A stretch of 64,000 nt of DNA from the NCBI RefSeq assembly GCF_036588685.1, contig NC_086381.1, positions 50,840,001-50,904,000 of the forward strand. Direction: 5' to 3'. This DNA comes from Mytilus trossulus (taxonomy: Eukaryota). The notes under the pieces were generated by a model. The model worked only from the letters and a program-made list of their open reading frames with translations, had not been told where the DNA came from and did not search any database. Position 1 is the first letter of the stretch. Each line of letters starts with the position of its first letter. Positions 6,301 through 61,126 of this stretch are shown here, piece after piece. The translations under genes were made by a program, and so were the position numbers.

Positions 6301-6569
6301 TTACAACCTAATAAAGAGAATTTGACACTTCTAATAATATTTTTAACAAAATACAATGTTATTTGTTGATCATATTGATAGGTGGCATAACTTTTTTACC
6401 AACCAACCCTTTCTAAGCAATTTTTGAAAGGCAAATGTACAGCTTTGTCAATCAGCACCAGATATGACAAAAGTCCTCTGGTCACAGTAAGGCTCACTTA
6501 CATATTATTTTTTTTTTCATTCTACTGTATTTTATTCGTAGGCTGGATAGTTCAATGTAAAGAATAAAC

Positions 6570-9500
6570 ATGGAAGGTCTAGGATCTGTGCAACAGAAGA
6601 TTTCATGTGTGTTCAAGACAGCAGTTTTAGAAGAACAATCTAACAAAAGAACTTACCAACCATATAAAGTTGTAGCTGTTGATGAAATTAGACCACAGGC
6701 CATAGAAGATAACATCAGGGTAGCTAGGGCTACAGAAAAATTAGATGGGACTTGTGTTTATATTGCAGAATTTTGTGGTAATTTTAAAATTGATAAATTA
6801 TTAATAATTAAAATTGACAACAACACTTCAAAAGATCTGCAATTTTATTATCTATGTCTACATGTTTCGCCTGCAAGGCAGGCTTCATCAGGACAATTTT
6901 TATACAGAAATTGAGCCCCTGAGGTACTCAAAGTGGTGCATTGAATTTGACGTTGTCATGGTGAGAGAAACAATGAAAAGTGAAAGTAGCAATACAGAGT
7001 TATAAATAGATAAGATAAATATAGAAAATTAAAGTTTGTATACAATGTAACTTGAGTTCGTTTTACTATTATATGATACATGAAATTGTTCTAAAGGCTT
7101 GGCATCTAATAGGACGAACTTCCCATGGTTCCTACCACTTGGCAAGGCTTCTCTTCCAACCTGGCCATAGTTGGAGGTTACTACTTCCCGGCGCGTCGGC
7201 AACAATAGGAAGATTATGATCTCCGCTGTGGATAATAAAATTGTCAAAAACTGATAAATTATTAGTATAATAGTCCAAGATTTTTTAATTTTAGTTTTAT
7301 TTAAAAAATGAATAGAGCTAGAATATGAATAAAAATTGAATGTTTTTATGTTTAATGTTTTAAACATAGCAAATAGATCATGTTGATTATTTATGTTTAC
7401 ATGTTTTTAGGAAAACCTTGGTTGTGGGCAAGGCTAGACAGAAAACCAAACAAAAGTTCAGACAAAAAGTTCAAGAAGTTCCATAATCAGAAACAGCAAT
7501 GGCTTAGAGATGGCAAACAAGGATCAGAACCAACATTTCAGTGGAATGTTTTGACAGATTTTAAGGCAAGATAAATTCTGATGCCAAGCATAGTGAAATA
7601 CACTTAAGGTGGTACCTAACACTACAGGGAGATAACTCTGTAAAGTCGGTTTAACGTTTTAATTACGTTATGTTGTAAAAGGAATATTAAGCTTCTCAAT
7701 GATCAAAATTGGTGTTTGTCAAATTGCTATATATAACCAGTGTATTTTTTCTGACAAAACGGTTGGTTAAACTTTTTTAAAAATTTTATATTTTTGTTAA
7801 AGTGTCAAAGTAAATACTTTGACAAAATTTCATGAAAATTAAACGAGCCAAATTAATTTTAGTGAAAGTGTTAGGTACCACCTTAAATGATTGATATGAG
7901 TCATTTTAAATAGTTCCTATATATATTTATATTAAATAGAGGAAAGGATAAACATAAGTAAACATTTTGCTGCACTAGTTGCTAAAAATATATATGCGAT
8001 CAAACAAAGTCAAACAAAATTATGAAAGTATGACAGGTAAATGTAATAAGAAGATTTGGTATAAGGGCCAATGAGAAAACTCAAGTTACAATGTGTAAAA
8101 GTAAACAATTATAGGTCAAAGTACAGCCTTCAACATGGAGTCTTAACTGATGCAGAACAAAAAAATTTAAAGGGCCTGACAATGACTAGTGTTAAACAAT
8201 TCATATGGGAAAACCAACAGTCTAATCTATATGAAAAACAAGAGATGAGAAACACTTATGAACCACATCAACAAACCACAACCACTGAAAAACAGGTTAC
8301 TGACTTAGGACTGGTGCAAAATGTGTTAATATTAAAAAAAAAAAAAGAAGAAGAAAGAATAAGATTACATTGATCATGTCTTTAACACATCCATATAATT
8401 AGGATGAGATATTTGTTTGTTACCATTTATACAGCTAATCTTCAAACCAAATCTGTTTCTATGATAGAATTTAGTAAAGATTTGAATTAAAGAAACCCTG
8501 TCTTCAATAAACTGTGAGTCATATGCATGTAGTTAAGGTTCTCCTTAAATTTGGAGTGAACTTACAATAGTTTTCCACACAGGATTAGTATATTTTCAAC
8601 AGTGCCAGTATATTTAGTGTCTTTAGCGAGCTGCATAATCTAATGCAAGTGTTATGAATGTTGTATAAAAGTTTCCTTCAATGAGGTCAATAAGTTAACG
8701 TAAGGGTACCCAAATTGCACCGAGTACCCAAATTGCACCTATTCAGAAAAAATAGCAACGGAAATCTTACAAGATTTCCAAGAGACTAAACAATTTGTAT
8801 TTTTATGATTTGTTACTGTGCACGTCTTTCAACATAGGTAAACATATTTAGATATATACAAAACGTTCACAGTATTTATCAACAGATGGACTGTTTACTG
8901 AAAAAGCAAAATGTACAAAAACGTCACCATGCGACGACATCAAAACGTCATCTTTTTAAAATTAGCAAATACAATATATTACAAGTATCCATTTCGTAAA
9001 ATATGAAAAGTAAGCATGGACTAATATCCAATTGTTCAAAAATATTTGAAGAAATTAAACATAAGCTCAGTTATTAGACTTTTGACGATGTGAATTTAAG
9101 CATGGATGCAATTTGGGAACTCCTCATTACAGAATCATGGATAGTTTTGAGGTTGATTCAAACCCATTTTTTTATGACTCAATATGGATTAAAAATCAAA
9201 CTGGTGTACCTATACAATAAAGAAGGATAGGGCTACAAAATAAGCACGGTATGGACATTTTTTTCTTGATAAAAAAAAAACTTAGGTGAAAAAACTGTCA
9301 AAATAGGTGCAATTTGGGTACCGTCACGTTAGAGTTACAATGTATCTTTAATTTACCAAAACAAAATTTCAGGAAGTTCCCGAAAACTGGATTCCATCAT
9401 CTGGTGTCCCACTTATAGACGGCTTGCCTCAACCGGATGAAAACGGGCATATTCCAGGTAATTTTTAAGTTCCTTTGAAACTTATTGAATAAAAGTACGT

Positions 9501-12500
9501 TTTTATTTCTATTATTGCACAAGAAATTTAAGTTGTGAGTTCAAACTCCGTTCATGGCATGGTGTGTTAAACTCCAATCTTAATTGATAAAGACCACTGG
9601 TGGCCTTGGGCTGTTTTCTGCTCTTATGTCGGGTTGTTGTCCCTGACACATTCCTCATTCCATTCTCAATTTCAGTGTTCACCCTAAAGGGGGTCTCATT
9701 GGGGGGTTCCGATCCCGGATCCCGCTTACTGTTTTGTCAGATTCCCGTATCCCAGTTACACTATGTACGTAACCAATTCTTATTGTCATTTTTTGTCATT
9801 TCCCGGGTCCCGCAAGACCTCATTTCCCGTTTTCACGACACAATAATTTGACTTTCATGTTTCACGCTTACGAAAAATCGGCAATCCTGCGTCACGCTTA
9901 GACCCCAATGAGACCCACCCTAAATTTCCAATAAGATTTTAACTAGAATTCTGCTTAAATTAAAAAAAAGTGATAAACAAATTTTACATAATCATTCCTG
10001 AAAATATTTACCACTGATAGTTTGAATCTGTTTCTTCAGGTATAAAACTAATTACTTAAAGAAGATAATAATTTTGTATAAACATGCAGCAAAATATTAT
10101 CATCAAATATACTGTGCAGAAAATTTGTGTTTCATTGATATTAGATGGGAGATAACTCTAAATAGTTTGCTGGATAAAAAAAAGAAAATCCATAAAACAC
10201 ATGTTAACTTTGTATAAATATTTGTAATATTATTCTGTTTTCTAGGATGGGTACCAATTGAACAGAAATTCAAGCAGTACATTTGGCATATGTCATCAGT
10301 AGATCTTGATCATGGTTTAGGTGTGGTTCTCAGGTAATACATTATGCTTGATCATGGTTTAGGTGTGGTTCTCAGGTAATATATTATGCTTGATCATGGT
10401 TTAGGTGTGGTTCTCAGGTAATATATTATGCTTGATCATGGTTTAGGTGTGGTTCTCAGGTAATATATTATGCTTGATCATGGTTTAGGTGTGGTTCTCA
10501 GGTAATATATTATGCTTGATCATGGTTTAGGTGTGGTTCTCAGGTTATATATTATGCTTGATCATGGTTTAGGTGTGGTTCTCAGGTAATATATTATGCT
10601 TGATCATGGTTTAGGTGTGGTTCTCAGGTAATATATTATGCTTGATCATGGTTTAGGTGTGGTTCTCAGGTAATATATTATGCTTGATCATGGTTTAGGT
10701 GTGGTTCTCAGGTAATACATTATGCTTGATCATGGTTTAGGTGTGGACCGTGTGGTTCTCAGGTAATACATTATGATTGATCATGGTTTAGGTGTGGTTC
10801 TCAGGTAATATATTATGCTTGATCATGGTTTAGGTGTGGTTCTCAGGTAATATATTGTGCTTGATCATGGTTTAGGTGTTGTTCTCAGGTAATACATTAT
10901 GCTTGATCATGGTTTAGGTGTGGACCGTGTGGTTCTCAGGTAATACATTATGATTGATCATGGTTTAGGTGTGGTTCTCAGGTAATACATTATGATTGAT
11001 CATGGTTTAGGTGTGGTTCTCAGGTAATATATTATGCTTAATCTTTATGAATGTGTGTTGCTTAGAATGCATGGTCCTCTGTTTTAAATTAATAAGCATT
11101 GTAAAAGATTGTTAAAAATTGAGTGTTTGGAACATTAAAGCAAATTTGTAATCTGAAAATTTGGCAGGAAAATTGCTCTAGATTTTTCATACATTTAACA
11201 TTTACAGCTTTTTTGCTCACCAGGCCTAAATGCAGCAACAAAATAATAGATGCTGTGTTTATATGCAAAAATCTTCATTATAGAAAAATAGATTATCTCC
11301 CCTTGTCATTAGGCTATGATTTTGTTTTTAAGGAAAACAGGTGAAAAACTCGTTTTAAAACAGAAAACAAATAAGATGGTGTTTGAAAATACTTATCTAT
11401 TTCAGGGAAGATAGTGAAAGACCATCTGACCTTGTGATAGAGGTCAGAGAATTATGTGACCTTTTAGGTCATACAGCAGAGCTGATTGGCACTAATGTCA
11501 ATGCCAATCCTTATGGTATGCATAACCTCTGTTTCCTTTTTATCAGATCACATGTCCCAAAGGGCCAAATGAACTTTTCTCATCAGTTGCCCACTCTACT
11601 TTTATACTTTTGATCGTTTTGGAAAATTTCTCACATAAATTTTCAATAGCTTTATCATCAAAAAAAATTATAAATTACTTTATGCTTGTTACAACAGAAT
11701 TGTAAATAACATTTTTATCCTTAATGCTTGTCTATCAAAAAGCAAACAGTAGTAAATGTTCATTAGGTATCATGACGATCAAAAGTTGAAACATAATAAA
11801 CAAAACTCTATTATATGATTATAGTTTTTTTTTCTCTAGAAAAAATAAAACATAGCAGATCAGTAAAATAAATCAGAATCAAGGATCTGGATTTTTTTGC
11901 ACACTATTTTGGTTATTTTTAGATGACTTAAAAGTTGATGCTTGTGATCCGTGTTGGGTAACACAGGTAAAATTAGTATTTATTAGCAATATATTTCCTG
12001 AAGGTATTAATATAGTTATGACGAGGGCCCTTAGGATATGAATACTACATTAGAGTGGCAGTTTTATTGCAGGAAAGTGATATTATAATAAAGACAAGTA
12101 CAAAATGGCGATCAAGATTTATCTTAACGAAATCTTAACGAAATGATCGAAATTATTTCTGTAAAAGTTATTTTTGTTCTAAATCCCTATCTTTCTTTTA
12201 GATTTCAGATTCCATCTTGTCTGGCAAATATGACCGTTTCTGGACCCTTCCGTACTAAATCCAACATTTTTTGGTATATTTTAGGCATTGGAAACAAAAA
12301 GAATCCACATCACTTTCTAGTCATTCATGGCTCAGTAGCTGTTAAAAATCCACCAATCTTCAAACTAGATAGTGTAAAGGACTGGTTTGAATCATCTGAT
12401 AGTAATGGCCGTGTAGAAGGTGTGGTGTGGCACTGCCCTGCTGGTGTTCTGTATAAAGTAAGTAATTTCAGCACTCACAATTGTTTTGAATTAGAGTTAA

Positions 12501-13840
12501 GTTGAATCCTATTGATTTGATTGCATTATTAATTTGCTGTAGGGGGTCTCGGTGGCTGAGTGGTCTAAGTTGTTACTACTGTAATCACTAGCCAGTCAAC
12601 ACTTCAATCTTAATTGACTTGAACTACCAGATATCCTATCAAAGGTCAGTGGTTTTTCCCTGGCACTCTGGCTTCCTCAACCACTAAGAACTGGTCTTCA
12701 AGAAATAGCCTAAATGCAGTGCTTAATAGGGCGTTTAAACACCAAAAATTAAAAAATAAATTTGCTGTAGTATTGATTTTTATCAGTCGTGTCTGTTACT
12801 AATCACTCATTAGAAGTTATAATTTGAAACAAAACTCTTAAATCCAGAAGCACCAAACCTAAATGTTTTAACTGTTTTACTGACTATCAATTTTAGGTTG
12901 ATAGTCCCAAATATAAAGCTTTACTTCAAGTATCGCATTTAATTTACATGACACAAGAAAATGAGGTCAAGGTCAGATAAAACCAGAAATACATGTACAC
13001 CTTAGTCTTTATAATCATTACATACACCAAATATAGAAAACCCTATTGCTTAAAGTGTCTGAGATATGTACATGACCATGAAAACTTAACCTTGTTCATT
13101 GATCCATGAAATAAGGTTGAGGTCAGATAAAAACTGTCGGATAGGTACAAGGACCTTGCAAGGTATGCACATATAAATAAAACATATACTGACATGTACA
13201 TCATAAAATATTCATGATATTGTCATACACCAAATATAGAAAACCTATTGCTTATAATATCCGTGCAAGCTATGCACATACTAAATATAATGACACTATT
13301 ACTCATAATAGAAAGAAATTATCAGAACAAAAATTTAATTCTATATCAAGTAGTCAATTAGCCAGGAAAATGAGGTCAAGAACAATGAACATATGACAGA
13401 AGGAACCTGCATAAAATAAGGCATATATACAAAGTATGAAGCATCCTGGTTTTCCGCCTTCTAAAATATAAAGATTTTAAGTTAGCCAGACACTATCGAG
13501 CTTTCTCTAGTTGCAGTGGCAGTGATTCAGTTATTACTTAAAGGATGAATCACATTGATGTGGCATAAGTCCACAACCTTGCATTGAAATTCTTTGATAA
13601 TGCAAATAATTGTTTTTTTTATTATTACAGGTTCATCGACATCATCTGAATCTTTCATGGCCGATCAAGGAACCACAACTCTCCTGTCGTAAAATTCATA
13701 TTTGTGTCGATGTTTCAAAGTATGAGTTATCGTACGATAAAAAATCAATATTCACAGAGTTGGCAAAATTCCAAGGACTGTCATGTGACTCTTTGATGAA
13801 TATTCATGAATTATTCATGGAGGAAAATGAAACAAGATAG
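6570..13840 (+). CDS. RLIG1: RNA ligase 1 (C12orf29 homolog), 7 coding exons, 342 aa
   Basis: Exons 6570-6777, 7411-7565, 9373-9457, 10246-10333, 11406-11515, 12285-12457, 13631-13840 join in frame (1029 nt). The protein has [15 protein letters not shown], ligase motif [10 protein letters not shown] (KxDG), [36 protein letters not shown] and EGVVWHC...[12 protein letters not shown], all matching C12orf29/RLIG1. An acceptor at 6540-6541 implies an upstream non-coding exon. Confidence 0.95.
7608..7882. mobile_element. MITE with TTAA TSD (Kolobok-like, GG..CC termini)
   Basis: TIR GGTGGTACCTAACACT / AGTGTTAGGTACCACC with TTAA on both sides; a degenerate relative lies at about 15095-15340. Confidence 0.85.
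8696..9331. mobile_element. MITE with ~30-bp imperfect TIRs
   Basis: TAACGTAAGGGTACCCAAATTGCACC ... GGTGCAATTTGGGTACCGTCACGTTA; the GTACCCAAATTGCACC motif is repeated subterminally. Confidence 0.8.
9689..9916. mobile_element. MITE, 8-bp TSD (hAT/P-like), copy 1
   Basis: TIR GGGTCTCATTGGGG / CCCCAATGAGACCC; TSD ACCCTAAA. This element explains ORF 9600-9851. Confidence 0.85.
10305..11039 (+). repeat. 42-bp minisatellite, 17 copies, each made of the last 29 nt of RLIG1 exon 4 plus its 5' splice site
   Basis: Unit CTTGATCATGGTTTAGGTGTGGTTCTCAG|GTAATA(T/C)ATTATG. Units 11 and 15 carry a 9-bp insertion, giving a 177-bp higher-order spacing. Confidence 0.97.
12880..13520 (+). mobile_element. Degenerate Helentron-associated (HINE-like) element
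   Basis: Shares GAAAATGAGGTCAAGG core repeats and flanks with the copies at 40924 and 59815. Confidence 0.7.
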
Positions 13841-14731: not shown

Positions 14732-16022
14732 TTAACAATTATCACAATTTCCAAGCATAAACATATCAACTCACATCTGGTATATGAAAAATACAGGCCA
14801 TATTCATAAAAAATAGCCTTGCCCATAACAACATGTCAAAAATGATAACCACTCCCAGGAAAATATTTTAAATATTTGGACATATTGGAAAACAAATATC
14901 GGAAATATGAGTTTTGTTAACTCATTATTGATGACAGTATAACAACTCATCAACACACATGGTTTATATCTTTGATAGAACAAATTGGTCAAAATAGCAC
15001 AATATAAAATTTAGTCCTAAGACCCATCATATAAATCAGTAGATTTAAAACAAAAACTTCAAATACAATTATAAACTTATGCGATACATAACATTACAGG
15101 GAGGTAACTCTGTAAAAATCAGCTGAAAGTTTTAATCACATTCTAATGTTAAGGAAATATCAAGCATCTTAATGATATAGATACCATAAGTGTTTGTCAA
15201 ACTGCTAAATATATCCAATGAATTTGTTCTGATAAAGAGAGTAGTTCAAGTTTTTTTTTGTGAATGGACCAAGGTAAATATTGAGTCGAAGTTTCTGAAA
15301 ATTAAATAGGCCAAATTACTTTTTAGTCTTATTTTCACCTTCAATTACTTTGTCTAGTCTCCCAATTCTGATCATTCTCGTGAATGATGTCTATGCCAAT
15401 GAGAAAATCCAATAGATACAATTTCAATGACAAGTTTTGTTTGAAACACATGTATTTTTGGTCGCATCTTGAAACAAAATGAAAATTCATATCGTGATAA
15501 AAAATTGAAAGAGAGATTTCTTGATACAATCAACATAAAGGCTAAATGAATGAAAAACATCATGCAGACACATATTTCACATATAATCATATAAGTTAAA
15601 CATGTACACCACAGCTGAGGAGGATATTTCATTCCTTTCTAACCAAGGATGGGGGAGGATGGCAAAATTAATAGATTTTCCTCTTAATAGAATGGACATG
15701 CCATTTCTGGATTCGTTTCTGGACACTAATTTTTGTGGATTTTGTGGATTCAGGGAACAACAAGTTTCATTCTTCATTGAATAACAAATTTTCTAAGAGA
15801 AAGTATGCAGACTATGCCAAAACCATGGATTTTTTTTTTATCTATGAATGAAAGTTTTCCTCAATCCACAAAATTGGTTCCCATGAAAATTATTTAATCC
15901 ACAGTAGCTATAAATAGTGATACAATTAGTCATGGTTTTGTGGCAATGTTCAGTTTGATGACATGATCAATCTTTCATGCAGCTCATTCGGTTTTGTGTA
16001 GCTTCTTTTGTATTGTTCCTCT

Positions 16023-42582
<26,560 letters not shown>

Positions 42583-52100: not shown

Positions 52101-55100
52101 TATGCATGTATATACTTATAGAAAGAAAATCTTCCATAAATTTGATTTCTAATGGTCATAAGGGTGAAATATAATCCCTTTTGGGTGTAACCATGGCGAC
52201 AATTTGCATTTCTTAGATACAAAATATAGCAAAAGAGGGGGGTGAACGTGTCACAAAAGTCTCCAAAATTTGATCTAAAGGAAAATTTCAATGAATTACA
52301 GTGATACCTTTCCTGAATCCATAGGTTTATATCTATCAAGTGGTCAAAAAAAAATCATATGCTTTCCTGCTCGTTTTTCCATAAAATTGAATTGAAAAGA
52401 TCGAACGCAAAATCTTTGTTGATAAACACTACTATAATTTATGGACCTATGAACGGTACGGATAGGAAAATACGGACTGTCAATCAAAGAAATGGCCTAT
52501 AAAACATGTTAAAATCAATCTAAATGTTCATATAAACCCACTAAGAAGGCTATATTATTCTTCAATTATCTAAAAATCAATTTTATTGTACAAAAACTTT
52601 CATATTTAAAAAATTCACAGGGGCCATAATGCGAAACTAAACTTCTAACTGTGTATTGCTACCTAAGATTACCAATAATTAACAAGTTCTGGATCAAATC
52701 TGATACTGATACCAATAGTATAATGTCACATGTTACCTGTCCTGTTACCTAATATGTACGTTCCGCCTTTGTCAAGCACACCACCTAACGATGTATTCAG
52801 GATTTGTTATATACACAGGTCATAATCACACCTGAACTTCGTCAGTATATAGGGATTGACACTAAATTCAATTATTGACCAAAACAATATATAAATCTTC
52901 AAGTAGTTTTCGGTTGTAGTAAGAAAACCAGGACAGGTTCAAACAGAAAGATTTTGAAAACAGAGAAAACTGTGTATCTTATAATCAGTATGTCTTTATC
53001 AAATGGCAATACGAACACTAAGAATCCAGGCTAAAAATAAGGTGTAGCTACTTTAATTCAGTCACTGACCCACGATGTCCAGGGTGTGTTCTAGTTATAT
53101 AATAAAATAACTCTTTATCCTGTATTAAATGTGTTGGTTGACCTGTCAATAGGGATAGAATATCACCAATAAGCAATAAACGTAATAATTAATACAATTT
53201 TATCAAGGAAAAGAACAAAAACAAAAATTTTGGTTTAAATTTTGTATGAAAAATGTAAAGAAATGACTTTTTGTTAGTCGCAACCTTACAGAAATTCGAC
53301 ATTTATTACAAATTTTGGTGGGCAGGGTTTAAGATAGTATATGGTCAGTGACTGTAAAGCATAAATATATACAGTCAATGCAATTACTCAAATATGATTT
53401 ATAAAAATAATTGGATCAGTGCCTGATATATCTATGTGTAACAATATATTTGACTGTTCTAATTGCATTTGAAGAAACAACTCCTTAACTTCTACAAGTT
53501 TACAATCATTTGCTATACCAGGATCTATATTTCTCAGTATACTCTCAGGATTCCTTTTCCCATTTCCACTGGCATTATTTTTAGTATGTTTGGTAAGTAT
53601 TCCTAATTTTCATTCTTAATTTAAGTGAAAGTTCTTACTAGAATCAGGCACTATAAGAAATTCTCAAAACATAATAATAAACAAAAAAATACTGCAAATT
53701 AAGCATGCATACAGTTTATTTTGCAATCTTGATTGCCTTCAAGTAAAAATGATAGATAGGAGCTGTTTTGTATCTGTAGGTCATGTTATTCACAATTATA
53801 GTATTTCAGCAAGATGTTACTTGTAATAATTGAGTTACCTCTATCTGGTTTGGTTTTAAAAATAATAAGCAAAACACCCAAGAAGTTCAAAAATACTACC
53901 GAAAACTGAAGATGGAATTATATAAACCTATAAACCCACTTAAAGGTGGGGTGAATAGTTTTATAAATAAAATAAGGTTTTTATATACTTGCATGACTTC
54001 TTATAGATCTAGAGATCAACATACATGTACTATATTCATTGATAGACAAGTGTCCATACCGTACATATTAAAAATTAAAACTTATTGAAGCATACACATT
54101 AAGCATTGGGATATATTGTAGATAAGTGGAAAGGTCATCTTAATATTTAATGAAAGTTAAATGTTTGTGTTTTGTATTTTTCAGTGTTCTGGTTTAGGAG
54201 CAACATTTTGTTATTCATTATCATATCTAGTAGGAAAACAATTAGTCATGAAATATATACCACAGAGAGTTACAGAATGGCAATCTCATGTAAGTACAAA
54301 ACCATAAATTACATACATGGGGGGGAGGGTAACAGAATGGCAATCTCATGTAAGTACAAACCAATAGAGTACATACATGGGGGGAGGGTAACCGAATGGC
54401 AATCTCATGTAAGTACAAACCCATACAGTAAATACCTGGGTGATGTTCTCTCATGAAAGTAAATATTTACCTGTATAGGGCGGCATTACAGAATGGCAAT
54501 CTCATCCAAGTATATACCAGGAGGAAAATAACAGAATGGCAATATCATGGAATTAATTATTACTTGTATAGTACATATTGAGGGGATGGTTTTACAGAAT
54601 GGAAATCTCATGTAATATATTTAAAAATTCGTAAGGGTTTCACGGAACCCAGTGTCTCGCCTACTTTTGCTGTTAATCGCAGACTCAACAAAAATGAGGA
54701 AAAACATCAATAAAAATTTCCCTCTCGATACTGTCTTTTGATTGAAAGAAGCTTCCAAGTTTGGAAAAAAATCCAGGATAGTTTATAAATCTAATAAATG
54801 TTTTATAAACTTTAACTGCAGACTGTATGTAATGTTACTTGGAAGAAAAACTAAGTCCATTTATAAGTAAAATACAGAAAAAGTGATTTTTTTTTTTACA
54901 AAATTTACTTCTGAATAATATCTTATGATCAGAAACAAGCTTTTGTCTAAGTTTGGTAGAAATCCAGGATAGTTTAAGAACATTATAAAAATTTTAAAAA
55001 CTTAAACCACAGAGTGAATGTTTTGTTTCTGGCAAAAAAACTAAGTCCATTTATAAGTAAAATAAAGTAAAATACGGAAAAGTGGAAATTTATTTTTACA

Positions 55101-57858
55101 AAATTTTCTTCTTGATACTATCTTATGATCATAAACAAGCTTCTGTCCAAGTTTGGTAGAAATTCAGTATAGTTTAAGAAAGTTATTAAAATTTCAAAAA
55201 CTTTAACCACAGAGTGAATATTTGTGGACGCCGCCGCCGCCGCCGACGGAATGTAGGATCGCTTAGTCTCGCTTTTTCGACTAAAGTTGAAGGCTCGACA
55301 AAAAAGGAGCTGTGGTATGATTGCAATTGGAAAACTCTTCACCAGAGTTCAAATGACATAGATATACCCAATTAAAGGCCTCAGTATGAAATTGAACAAT
55401 GAGAAAATCCCATAGTGCTTTGTCGGCTATAAAAGCCCCCAACAAGAAAATGTGAAACATTTCAAACAAGAAAATTAACGGCCCTATTTATAACAAAGCA
55501 ATTTACAAAATATAAAAATGACATTAATAACCATTGAATAAAGGCTCCTGACAGGCACATAAAGAATATGGCAAGGTAAATCATGCTTGTGAGCACTCAA
55601 TCCTCCCCTCAGCTGGGACAGTCATGTCACAGCAAAACATAAGAACATTAGAACAAACTGTAAAAATTAGATATACTTGTACAGTTACTAGTAATGCAAC
55701 AGGGAGGGTGACAGAAAATATTCATATTCATTGATACTACTTTATGTGGGAGGCTAATAATGGTAATGTAATGTATGTAGTTTGATGGAATATGTACCAG
55801 CATCATTAAAGCAGATGCTAAAACAATACCTATCAGTGGGATGTTTTAAAAAGTAAGAAGTTACTACATACATGCCAAGGCTAACAGAATGTAATCTTTT
55901 GTCTTTCCAGGTAGATAAACACAGAGAACATTTGTTGAACTACATCATATTTTTGAGAATTACACCATTTTTACCCAACTGGTTTATAAACATTACTTCA
56001 CCAGTCATAAATGTTCCAATTGTACCATTCTTTGTTGGAACATTTTTAGGTAAGAATTATTGATTTCAAGAATTCCCATTCAGAAGTTTTTTGAGTGATT
56101 AAAACAATATAGAATAAAAAAAGATATAGTTCAATAGATTTAAGTTTTATGTGCCATTTATCTCATATAGTCTTCTCATATAGCCTTCTATTCTCAATTT
56201 TATTACTAATATTCACTTCATTTTAGTCCCCTACCGACGAAGTCGAAGGGGACTTTAGGTTTGCACTCCATCCGTCTGTCCGTCTTACCATCCGTCTGTC
56301 CGTCGTACCGTCCGTCTGTCCATCTGTCCATCCGTCCATCCGTCAGTTCGGCAAATCAGTTTTCCACACTTTTTTTCTTCGTTCTACAAGATATTGATTT
56401 GATATTTGGTATATAGTTTTATCATGACAAGTTATAGATCAAGTTCGAATTTTGTTCCGGTCTGATGATTAAGTATAGAGTAATCAGGGTCCATATCTAA
56501 TGTTAGAGTACTACATTTTGTATGTTAAACCATATTTCTGTACAAAGAGAGATAACTCATTTTTTTAAAGACATTCTTTGGTTAATTGTTTGAAGTGGTT
56601 TTTTTTTTTGTATAAACTAATTTTCTGAATGGTATATACATAAAACAAAATTATGAAGTGAAATCTTTTAATTAGATAATAATCTATGTTTTATAAGGTA
56701 TATATTTCATTACATTACATCGTGTATAGATAAAAGTGGTTGACATTTTATAGATAAGTAAATTTTGTTTTGGTCTGATAATTTTGTGCAGAGTTATGGT
56801 ACTTGGACTTGAAAAATTCACTCATATAATCAGTTTTCCACACTGTTTTTAGTCATGCTTGACTATATTGACTTGATATTTTCTTTTTACACCATGACAA
56901 GTTATAGAATAAGTTAGCATTTTGTTCCAGTATAATGAATTTTTACCCGGTAGGGGACTATGTATTGCCATGCAATACTCTCAGAATGCTTGTTCAGTTA
57001 ATTTTTTAAATTTGACAAGAGCTTATTGAGCGATTCACACTGATTTGACTGTTAGTAACACTGTCATATTACTCAGCTTCTGTTTTATGCAATGATTTAA
57101 TAGTTGATCTTCAATTTTATAAGATGATTGTTCAGTTACCTTGACAACAATTATGACAGAAATTTTCCATAGATTCTTGAGTCAGTATATTTGATAGTTT
57201 AATTGAGCATCTGTTATCACAACCTTTCTTTCATAAACCAATACATGAAATGTACATTCACTGTTTATCAATCTAATTCATTCTAGGAAATATTTTCAGT
57301 AATGTACATCAGAGTGTTGTGATTGGTTGACATGGATCTAAACAATTGATAACCAGCCAATTAAGTACTCTGAATTTCTTTTTTTTGTACAAACAATAAA
57401 TACCCATAATGCCTTTGGTTTTGAAATGTCAAATTGGTTGATTGTTTGACTAGCCACAATCACAGTCGATATACTTTAAACCATAAAATTGTTTGTTTCA
57501 TTTTAGGTGGTATACCACTGCATTTATTGCAATACAAGTCACTTCCTGTTTGCGAACAATTTGAATTTGTATTAAACCCACTAGCCACAAAATTATTTGT
57601 TATATATTACTCAGCATTTTGGAATACTTTTATACTTGGTCTGGAATTTGATAATGTTATAAATCATAATTTTTATTTTTTATTTTAGGTGTTATACCAC
57701 CGACGTTTATTGCAATACAAGCAGGTACAACATTACATCAGCTGACATCATCAAGTGACATGCTATCTTGGACTTCTATAGGCATGTTAGCATTGTTTGC
57801 TGTTATATCTTTACTACCTGTCGTATTCAAGAAAAAATTACAAGAGAAATTAGACTGA
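46136..57858 (+). CDS. TMEM41B: Transmembrane protein 41B (Stasimon; DedA/VTT-domain lipid scramblase), 7 coding exons, 283 aa
   Basis: Exons 46136-46196, 49470-49623, 51358-51486, 53499-53592, 54185-54289, 55911-56049, 57689-57858 join in frame (852 nt). Motifs: LPRDIEDAKRLG, YIFLQSFAIPGSIFLSILSGFL, CSGLGATFCY, NYIIFLRITPFLPNWFINITSP, FKKKLQEKLD*. Exon 1 is the least certain. Confidence 0.94.
46499..47777. mobile_element. Non-autonomous TIR element (CAG..CTG termini) with subterminal tandem repeats
   Basis: TIR CAGGGATCTCCATGG / CCATGGAGATCCCTG; flanking ATGAT direct repeat; seven 20-21 bp GCCATCGT(T)(C)AAA units at 46534-46670. Confidence 0.85.
48253..48424. mobile_element. Small MITE (second copy at about 62425-62525)
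   Basis: GTTCAATATCGTAGC(A/T)GCTA ... GTAGC(C/T)GCTACGATATTGAA inverted ends are present in both copies. Confidence 0.75.
51742..51930. mobile_element. Tourist/PIF-like MITE, TAA TSD
   Basis: TAA|GGGCTATTCCAGAAAAAAATGTATGGG ... CCCATACATTTTTTTCTGGAATAGCCC|TAA. Confidence 0.88.
51999..52663. mobile_element. MITE with TAA-flanked TIRs
   Basis: TAA|GGCAGCAATACACAGTTAG ... CTAACTGTGTATTGCTACC|TAA. Confidence 0.82.
54270..54616 (+). repeat. ~60-bp tandem repeat duplicating the 3' end and donor of TMEM41B exon 5
   Basis: ACAGAATGGCAATCTCAT|GTAAGTACAAA at about 54272, 54332 and 54391 (one mismatch in the third), with degenerate copies near 54488, 54531 and 54594. Confidence 0.9.
54632..55305 (+). 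mobile_element. HINE-like element (second family) with internal tandem array
   Basis: GTGTCTCGCC near the start, ~190-bp repeated cores (AAATCCAGGATAGTTTA; AAACTAAGTCCATTTATAAGTAAAATA), (GCC)n run, TTCGACT..AGTTGAA hairpin, GGCTCGACAAAAA end. Confidence 0.8.
56221..56995 (+). mobile_element. pearl/DINE-like HINE with CCGT/CTGT microsatellite
   Basis: AGTCCCCTACCG ... CGGTAGGGGACT inverted subterminal repeat, (CCGTCTGT)n tract at 56270-56345, GTATTGC..GCAATAC hairpin. Confidence 0.8.
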
Positions 57859-59745: not shown

Positions 59746-61126
59746 GGGGTCATCCATAATTGTCAACCATTTTCCAAAGTGTACAAAACTTGGGGGAGGG
59801 GATTTACCGTACGCTTTTTGTCGAGTCTGCAACTTCTGTTGCAGAAAGCTCGACATAGGGATAGTGATCCGGCGACAGCGGCGGCGTTAGCTAACTTCTT
59901 AAAAGGTTAATATTTTAGAAGGTGAAAGACCTGGATGCTTCATACTTTGTATATAGATGCCTCATGTTACGAAGTTTCCGTCAGTCACATGTCCAATGTC
60001 CTTGACCTCATTTTCATGGTTCAGTGACTACTTGAAAAAAAAGTTCAGAATTTTTGTAATGTTTAATTCTCTCTTATTATAAGTAATAGGATAACTATAT
60101 TTGGTATGTGCGTACCTTGCAAGGTCCTCATGCCCATCAGACAGTTTTCATGTGACCTCGACCTCATTTCATGGATCAGTGAACAAGGTTAAGTTTTGGT
60201 GGTCAAGTCCATATCTCAGATACTATAAGCAGTAGGGCTAGTATATTTGGTGTATGGAAGGACTGGAAGGTGTATATGTCCAACTGGCAGGTGTCGTCTG
60301 ACCTTGACCTCATTTTCATGGTTCAGTGGTTATAGTTAAGTTTTTGTGTTTTGGTCTGTTTTTCTCATTCTTTATGCAATAGGTCTACTATATTTGTTGT
60401 ATGGAATGATTGTAAGGTGTACATGTCTAGCGGGCAGATGTCATCTGACCTTGACCTCATTTTCATGGTTCAGTGGTCAAAGTTAAGTTTTTAAGTGTTG
60501 GTCTTTTTATCTAATATTATATGCCAAAGGTCAACTATATTTGGTGTAAGGAAATATATTATGATCTATATGTCAGTCCCGCAGGTTTTATTTGACCATG
60601 ACCTCAATTGCACGGTTCATTGCACAGTGTTAAGTTTTTGTGTTTTGGTCTATTTTTCTTAAACTATAAGTAGTAGGTCAACTATATTTGTTGTATGGAA
60701 GCTTTGTTAGCTGTACATGTCTGCCTGGCATGGTTCATCTGACCTTGACCTCATTTTCATGGTTCATTGGTCTTTGTTTAGCTATCTTGGTTAATGTTAA
60801 GTTTATGTGACAGTTGTAATAAAGCTTTATACTTAGGACTATCAACATAATATCAATGATTAGTAAAGAAGGCGAGACATTTCAGTGTGTGCACTCTTGT
60901 TTTCTTTCTTCATCAAATAAAAGTCAGATATGTTTCACTTTCTTTTCAATGCAAATTTCTATATTAAACTAAACTACAATAAACAGGATCTTTTTTTATT
61001 AAGAATGATTGATTCTTGTCTTGAAATCTGAAAATGGTTGATGTACACTTTTTGAGGGAGGGTGGGGGGTCTGAAAAAGTGTGTTTTGTACACTTTGGAA
61101 AATGGTTGACAATTATGGATGACCCC
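59746..61126. mobile_element. Tourist/PIF-like MITE interrupted by a HINE insertion
   Basis: TTA|GGGGTCATCCATAATTGTCAACCATTTTCCAAAGTGTACAAAAC ... GTTTTGTACACTTTGGAAAATGGTTGACAATTATGGATGACCCC|TTA (44-bp perfect TIR). Confidence 0.88.
59815..60900 (-). mobile_element. HINE-like element, same family as 40924-42364, opposite orientation
   Basis: Reverse complement of the 40924 copy along its whole length, apart from that copy's insertion; T-rich junctions. Confidence 0.88.

What the first reader, a model, noticed from the sequence alone, without database searches (positions are those of the whole stretch)
10305..11039. Seventeen tandem copies of an RLIG1 5' splice site
Seen: the 42-bp unit is the last 29 nt of exon 4 plus GTAATA(T/C)ATTATG, so the true donor at 10334 is followed by 16 near-identical donors; only unit 6 reads GTTATA. 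The unit is a multiple of 3, but read-through gives CTC AGG TAA, so any downstream donor adds a premature stop. Each unit also contains TTCTCAG|GTAAT and TTTAG|GT, AG|GT juxtapositions like recursive (ratchet) splice points. Inference: copy number could shift the ratio of productive to NMD-targeted RLIG1 mRNA, or the intron could be removed stepwise.
Basis: partly seen in the sequence, partly recalled or inferred. Interest (0 to 1): 0.7.

Follow-up and report, generated by a model that had tools for sequence, protein, structure and literature searches.

The report
Splice-donor minisatellite in mollusc RLIG1
In a mollusc's RNA ligase 1 gene, the end of one exon and its splice signal are repeated 17 times in a row in some animals and present only once in others, and the two transcript assemblies read across the junction use the first copy, so this is likely a harmless new example of a repeat type already known from human and lancelet genes.

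Summary
10305-11039 is a 17-unit array (15 x 42 bp, 2 x 51 bp) copying the last 29 nt of RLIG1's fourth coding exon plus 13 nt of intron. Donor 10334 gives an intact 342-aa protein; all 16 later donors give TAA at codon 180. It is no artefact: one DNA run has about 11-fold depth over the unit, and two likely-RNA runs of other studies hold tandem units. Two other DNA runs show single-unit alleles, so it is polymorphic and unconserved. Both RNA runs read across the junction splice first donor to exon 5; minor leak is not excluded. No unit meets the minimal recursive-site motif. The layout matches human F7 intron 7, CBS, 6-16, LMNB2, PDGF and lancelet 'mirage' repeats (PMC1557585, PMC3087553). 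A second donor array lies in the same window, and earlier notes of this scan list many in this and other genomes. Verdict: new member of a known kind, likely near-neutral; a copy-number NMD dial has no support here.

The parts
10305..11039 (+). Tandem array, 17 units (15 x 42 bp, 2 x 51 bp) plus CTT; unit = last 29 nt of coding exon 4 + first 13 nt of intron 4
   Evidence: single locus in the genome by DNA search
10246..10333 (+). RLIG1 coding exon 4 (88 nt); its last 29 nt are unit 1
   Evidence: PF17720 E 4.2e-07; RNA contigs
10334..10341 (+). Authentic 5' splice site CAG|GTAATACA, the donor used in the transcript contigs
   Evidence: X9 cover stops at 10334; X6, X8
10335..10337 (+). In-frame TAA (codon 180) reached if any later donor is used
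10376..11031 (+). 16 downstream pseudo-donors; 15 GTAATA, one GTTATA (10544)
10683..11036 (+). Distal block with a higher-order repeat: units 10-13 resemble units 14-17 (each block holds one 51-bp unit followed by an A-starting unit)
   Evidence: unit table; the duplication history is inferred
11037..11043 (+). CTTAATC, a 6-of-7 match to the unit's first 7 bases (CTTGATC); 7 of 7 in an array-free allele; likely seed of the first duplication
   Evidence: 11040 A>G in X2 contig 9, but A in X13; role inferred
11406..11515 (+). RLIG1 coding exon 5; acceptor AG at 11404-11405; intron 4 is 1072 nt (382 nt without the extra units)
6570..13840 (+). RLIG1 (C12orf29) coding span: exons 6570-6777, 7411-7565, 9373-9457, 10246-10333, 11406-11515, 12285-12457, 13631-13840; 342 aa, intact
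   Evidence: junctions 4-5 and 5-6 seen in contigs, the others predicted from frame and splice signals

Best explanation
This is an intronic minisatellite copied from the RLIG1 exon 4/intron 4 boundary, absent from some alleles, whose 16 spare donors are likely mostly ignored because the first donor is used, so it likely has little or no effect on the protein. Shown: the copy structure, the stop behind the first donor, tandem-unit and single-unit alleles, and first-donor junctions in two RNA runs. Inferred: a first 42-bp duplication by slippage or unequal exchange between two short near-identical words 42 bp apart (CTTGATC at 10305, CTT[A/G]ATC at 11037), then ordinary minisatellite turnover, including a roughly four-unit block duplication. 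Taken from the human F7 model and not tested here: the most upstream of identical donors wins (oriented scanning or exon definition), and any rare later-donor product would be removed by nonsense-mediated decay.
For: X6 (728-nt contig, depth 9.77) and X8 (708 nt, 47.1) join the unit end to 11406 (GT..AG) with unique exon-4 letters upstream, that is the first donor: 2 of 2 RNA runs laid on that stretch. X9's cover stops at 10334. Both X6 and X8 also hold 72-nt tandem-unit contigs, so the first donor is used in samples that carry array alleles; in X6 that contig (2.5) has the depth of an ordinary distal-intron contig (2.2), as unspliced RNA or DNA would. In DNA runs X2 and X13 nothing covers 10982-10995 (bin depths match exactly); X2 has exon-4 letters right before one unit and X13 has one 957-nt contig through one unit. 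The X6 unit carries a G>A found in none of the 17 reference units. The same build recurs 44 kb away in another gene and at L080. F7, LMNB2 and PDGF use only the first donor; lancelet mirages do not disturb splicing.
Against: All RNA evidence is from contigs of runs only guessed to be RNA, and contigs drop rare forms. X8 holds the tandem-unit contig (6.39) with no cover of the unique distal intron: summed low background over many copies explains it, but so would a donor-2 product, which carries all 42 unit words. Human 6-16 and CBS do use two further donors. Array and junction were not phased on one molecule, and the samples may hold several animals or alleles. X1 may be the assembly's own source. 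The seed repeat is 6 of 7 in the reference and in X13, 7 of 7 only in X2.
Confidence: 0.8

Rival explanations
1. Copy-number dial: the nearest spare donors (exon 4 lengthened to 130, 172 ... nt) take a real share of splicing, the products are degraded by NMD, and array alleles make measurably less RLIG1.
For: Donors are near-identical (7 of 11 matches to the U1 complement, 6 for unit 6). The stop at codon 180 lies upstream of three junctions. Leak is reported for 6-16 and CBS. X8's unit contig without distal-intron cover fits a donor-2 product; if all of it were that, the share would be about 12% (6.39 of 53.5; contig depth is a poor measure).
Against: No contig shows a later donor joined to exon 5. 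In F7 only the most upstream site is used. In the known leaky cases only the two nearest sites are used, so copies beyond the third should add little: the effect would be presence/absence, not a dial. The array is unconserved.
Confidence: 0.13
2. Recursive (ratchet) splicing: CTCAG|GT in a later unit acts as acceptor and then donor, so the intron is removed stepwise with the same final mRNA.
For: Every unit has CAG|GT and a branch-like TTGAT about 25 nt upstream (sequence). Recursive sites occur over a range of intron sizes and at YAG-ending exons (PMC10156609 passages). On my small acceptor matrix the unit scores 2.8, above 2 of 11 real acceptors and above 250 of 284 intronic AGs.
Against: 0 of 17 units meet Y5+N0-4YAG|GT. 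The tract holds 7 G in -20..-4 against 0-3 in 11 of 11 real acceptors, and another AG lies 13 nt upstream against 23 or more in the real ones. The intron is 1072 nt, and short introns prefer conventional splicing. AG|GT is just the donor consensus. The outcome would be silent in mRNA.
Confidence: 0.04
3. Assembly artefact or inflated copy number.
For: No long read was laid across the array; the number 17 rests on the assembly.
Against: X1 depth is 293.7 over the unit against 26.1 in the flank. Tandem-unit contigs stand in two other studies. Unit variants form an ordered higher-order pattern. No N in the window.
Confidence: 0.03

Closest known systems
Human F7 intron 7 37-bp VNTR (Borensztajn et al. 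2006, PMC1557585; read: abstract, Introduction, Results section 6, Discussion)
   Same: First unit spans the exon/intron boundary; identical donors follow; length varies; the first donor is used.
   Different: F7 unit has 4 exonic bases and 5-9 copies; here 29 exonic bases, 17 copies and single-unit alleles. In F7 some later sites add no stop, here all do. The F7 mechanism was tested with minigenes; nothing of the kind exists here.
Human 6-16 intron 2, CBS intron 13, LMNB2 and PDGF intron 4 minisatellites (as described in the Introduction of PMC1557585; original papers not read)
   Same: 10-26 tandem donors of the same build; CBS has 15-20 units, PDGF 16-18.
   Different: 6-16 and CBS use two extra donors; no extra donor was seen joined here, at contig resolution only.
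Lancelet 'mirage' repeats (Adh3, globins BflGb6 and BflGb9; PMC3087553, passages read)
   Same: Invertebrate tandem duplications of exon/intron boundaries, units 10-160 bp, unstable in length, reported not to disturb splicing; both donor-side and acceptor-side forms, as in this window.
   Different: Different phylum. My searches listed no paper on such repeats in a mollusc or in RLIG1; the library lacks most subscription journals.
Recursive splice sites / distal exonic recursive sites (PMC10156609, passages read)
   Same: YAG|GT juxtaposition.
   Different: Minimal pyrimidine-tract motif not met, short intron, not conserved between alleles, no lariat data.

Membership tests
Splice-junction minisatellite (F7-type / 'mirage') | First unit spans an authentic exon/intron boundary | tested here: met
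Splice-junction minisatellite (F7-type / 'mirage') | Later units reiterate the donor inside the intron | tested here: met
   16 of 16 later units keep GT; 15 keep GTAATA
Splice-junction minisatellite (F7-type / 'mirage') | Length varies between alleles | tested here: met
   Tandem units in X1, X6, X8; single-unit alleles in X2, X13. These runs carry different organism codes, so the variation may be between sister species as well as within one; copy numbers not resolved
Splice-junction minisatellite (F7-type / 'mirage') | Normal mRNA comes from the first donor | tested here: met
   Major contigs of X6 and X8; X9 stops at 10334. Minor forms cannot be seen
Splice-junction minisatellite (F7-type / 'mirage') | Spare donors work when the first is inactivated | not testable with these tools
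   Needs minigenes as in PMC1557585
Recursive splice site | Y5+N0-4YAG|GT motif (definition of PMC10156609) | tested here: not met
   0 hits in the array
Recursive splice site | Intermediate junctions or lariats at the site | not testable with these tools
   Only contigs were available
Recursive splice site | Site kept across related genomes | tested here: not met
   Single-unit alleles in X2 and X13
Regulated unproductive splicing (AS-NMD switch) | Alternative form puts a stop well upstream of the last junction | tested here: met
   Codon 180 of 343, three junctions downstream; that NMD acts on it is established knowledge, not tested in this animal
Regulated unproductive splicing (AS-NMD switch) | The unproductive form is made at a measurable, regulated level | tested here: inconclusive
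   No later-donor joint seen; X8 unit contig ambiguous

The most novel reading that the evidence does not exclude
Array alleles leak a real share of RLIG1 splicing to the spare donors and into NMD while single-unit alleles do not, so a segregating splice-donor array acts as a natural expression variant of an oxidative-stress RNA repair enzyme in a mollusc, and the 1-unit versus 17-unit alleles give a ready-made in vivo test of the 'first donor wins' rule outside mammals.
Probability: 0.12. Interest if true: 0.5.

Novelty: new member of a known kind. Interest (0 to 1): 0.17.

Why it matters
As it stands it matters little: one more splice-junction minisatellite, of a kind described in human and lancelet genes and recurrent in this genome. 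Its modest value is as test material. Alleles with one donor and with many identical donors both exist, and every spare donor adds the same stop, so allele-specific RNA-seq with NMD blocked would measure directly how strict first-donor choice is in an invertebrate. If leak proved sizeable, such arrays would be an overlooked source of expression variation in molluscs; RLIG1 is linked to RNA integrity under oxidative stress in human cells (search listing and abstract starts only).

Tried and rejected
No listed run is on record as RNA and none is kept as raw reads, so donor shares could not be counted; this is no evidence on expression. One search was swamped by a high-copy element in intron 3, so its joints and loose ends at exon 4 were cut from view; only depths and one contig row were used. 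A 1-Mb survey of unselected DNA of this genome: of 4073 candidate donors, 53 had downstream copies only and 54 upstream copies only; after keeping one per acceptor, Pfam (E<=0.01) hit 1 of 41, 1 of 47, and 8 of 150 drawn from 2353 unduplicated candidates (one of the 8 a transposase); candidates with copies on both sides (65) were not scanned. That suggests about 1 in 100 supported donors carries such copies and shows no enrichment of repeats at donors; the method recovered only 6 of 9 known window donors, so it is weak. Selection on the spare donors: 5 variable columns plus one insert among 17 units, one of them in the donor, too few to test. A coding repeat was rejected: all three forward frames hit stops within the first units. 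A dispersed-element origin was rejected: one locus only (a search that skips very common words). A 13-nt microexon from TTTAG|GTGTGG scores weakly as acceptor (1.8) and was not seen. A recalled 2023 paper on human VNTRs that shift donor use was not held and searches for it found nothing, so I make no claim from it. PMC10078293 passages held nothing on this layout. No supplements were read; those of PMC3087553 may list more cases. No fold or complex job was run, as none bears on the question.

Full report
Observation. TRF finds one array at 10305-11043, period 42, 17.2 copies. Parsing gives 17 units: 15 of 42 bp and two of 51 bp (units 11 and 15), all multiples of three. Every unit holds CTCAG|GT; 16 read GTAATA and unit 6 reads GTTATA. 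The unit is the last 29 nt of the 88-nt exon 10246-10333 plus 13 nt of intron. Seven coding exons from 6570 to 13840 give an open 342-aa protein, and 4 of 4 exon peptides tested match Pfam RLIG1, PF17720. Use of any of the 16 later donors puts TAA at codon 180. A DNA search finds the unit only at this locus. The animal is a mollusc by the label of one holder; 'mussel' comes from earlier notes of this scan and was not tested.

Is it real? In DNA run X1 the depth is 26.1 on the unique flank and 293.7 over the unit, about 11-fold; summed contig depth is no copy number, and X1 may be the assembly's source. Two runs of other studies, X6 and X8, each hold a 72-nt contig (42 + 30) made of tandem units. 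The X6 contig runs from one unit's tail through a whole unit into a third, and carries a G>A at 11013 found in none of the 17 reference units. So array alleles exist independently of this assembly. The number 17 itself was not checked.

Is it fixed? No. In DNA runs X2 and X13 the first bin's depth is accounted for exactly by contigs that start at 10996, with nothing on 10982-10995, where any unit-to-unit join would lie. X2 shows exon-4 letters directly before one unit; X13 has one 957-nt contig from exon 5 through a single unit. Contigs show presence better than absence, but a many-copy array would multiply its depth. Of the six runs laid, three show tandem units (X1, X6, X8), two show single-unit alleles (X2, X13) and one (X9) says nothing on the intron. 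Their organism codes differ, so the variation may lie within or between close species.

Which donor is used? X6 (728 nt, depth 9.77) and X8 (708 nt, depth 47.1) each have a contig that joins the unit's exonic end to 11406 with GT..AG ends, and whose upstream letters are unique exon 4, not a previous unit: the first donor. The X6 contig goes on into exon 6. X9's cover of exon 4 stops at 10334. No contig shows a later donor joined to exon 5. Against this: the runs are only guessed to be RNA and contigs drop rare forms. In X6 the tandem-unit contig (2.5) matches an ordinary distal-intron contig (2.2), as unspliced RNA or DNA would. In X8 the unit contig (6.39) has no distal-intron partner; low background summed over many copies explains that, but a donor-2 product would carry the same words. 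A small leak stays open.

Origin (inferred). The unit starts with CTTGATC and the array ends at CTTAATC; the array-free X2 allele reads CTTGATC there, X13 CTTAATC. Two near-identical 7-mers 42 bp apart are a plausible seed for slippage or unequal exchange. Later turnover left a higher-order pattern, units 10-13 resembling 14-17. Such a duplication is tolerated because the exon and its first donor stay intact.

Recursive splicing. AG|GT is the ordinary donor consensus, copied along with the donor. No unit meets the minimal motif Y5+N0-4YAG|GT used in PMC10156609. The tract has 7 G in -20..-4 against 0-3 in 11 of 11 real acceptors, and a competing AG 13 nt upstream against 23 nt or more. On a small matrix the site scores 2.8, below 9 of 11 real acceptors but above 250 of 284 intronic AGs, so it is weak, not impossible. 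The intron is 1072 nt. Stepwise removal would give the same mRNA.

How ordinary? In the same window an exon of a VTT-domain gene (54185-54289; name TMEM41B-like recalled; the next exon hits PF09335 at E 2.1e-05, below the cutoff) has its end copied five more times, three copies keeping GT, and that gene's last acceptor is duplicated. In 1 Mb of unselected DNA one further case had Pfam support: 33 copies of an LRR exon end with CAG|GTAAAT at L080, where the repeat frame is open for most units and a coding repeat is not excluded. The survey gave 1 of 41 against 1 of 47 mirror controls and 8 of 150 random candidates: recurrent, roughly one donor in a hundred, with no enrichment shown and low power. 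Earlier AI notes of this scan list at least nine such arrays in this genome and several in others; I did not check them.

Known kin. Human F7 intron 7 has the same build; only the most upstream donor is used, and later ones work only when earlier ones are mutated (PMC1557585: abstract, Introduction, Results section 6, Discussion). Its Introduction lists 6-16 and CBS (two extra donors used) and LMNB2 and PDGF (first only). Lancelet 'mirages' are the invertebrate form, unstable in length and reported not to disturb splicing (PMC3087553, passages). Searches listed no paper on this locus or on such repeats in molluscs.

Verdict. A real, polymorphic splice-junction minisatellite; new member of a known kind; likely near-neutral (0.8). 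Measurable leak to NMD 0.13, recursive removal 0.04, artefact 0.03. Interest 0.17.

Noticed in passing
window 54185-54615 (+): Second donor-side array: the end of a VTT-domain (TMEM41B-like, name recalled) exon is copied five more times into the intron; copies at 54335, 54394 and 54597 keep GT, those at 54491 and 54534 have lost it.
   Followed up: partly
window 57477-57538 versus 57660-57721 (+): Acceptor-side duplicate in the same gene: the last exon's 3' splice site and start are copied 183 bp upstream, 83% alike; only the downstream copy was shown to complete the frame.
   Followed up: partly
window 7565/7566 (+): RLIG1 intron 2 appears to start with a GC donor (AAG|GCAAGA), predicted from frame; not seen in RNA.
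   Followed up: partly
L080:2020-3490 (G000:C5:30142020-30143490, +): LRR_6 exon end with CAG|GTAAAT repeated 33 times at 42 bp; the repeat frame stays open for about 30 units, so it is either a donor array or a coding repeat.
   Followed up: partly
window 9687-9918: Very high-copy short element in RLIG1 intron 3 (depth up to about 600,000 in X1 against 26 in the flank).
   Followed up: no
window 11041 and 11053-11379: Intron 4 differs in other alleles too: a loose end after 11041 in X2 and about 390 extra bases in the X13 contig.
   Followed up: no
window 6510-6545: Acceptor-like sequence upstream of the ATG suggests a non-coding first exon, so exon numbering may be off by one.
   Followed up: no
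window 15990-16142 (-): Last exon of an unidentified gene converging on RLIG1; not annotated.
   Followed up: no
window 21021-21107: 37-bp x 2.4 perfect repeat holding GTAAGG on the minus strand; no open frame upstream was evident.
   Followed up: partly
window 41039-41688 and 60148-60772: Two short arrays of a 147-bp satellite-like unit on opposite strands.
   Followed up: no
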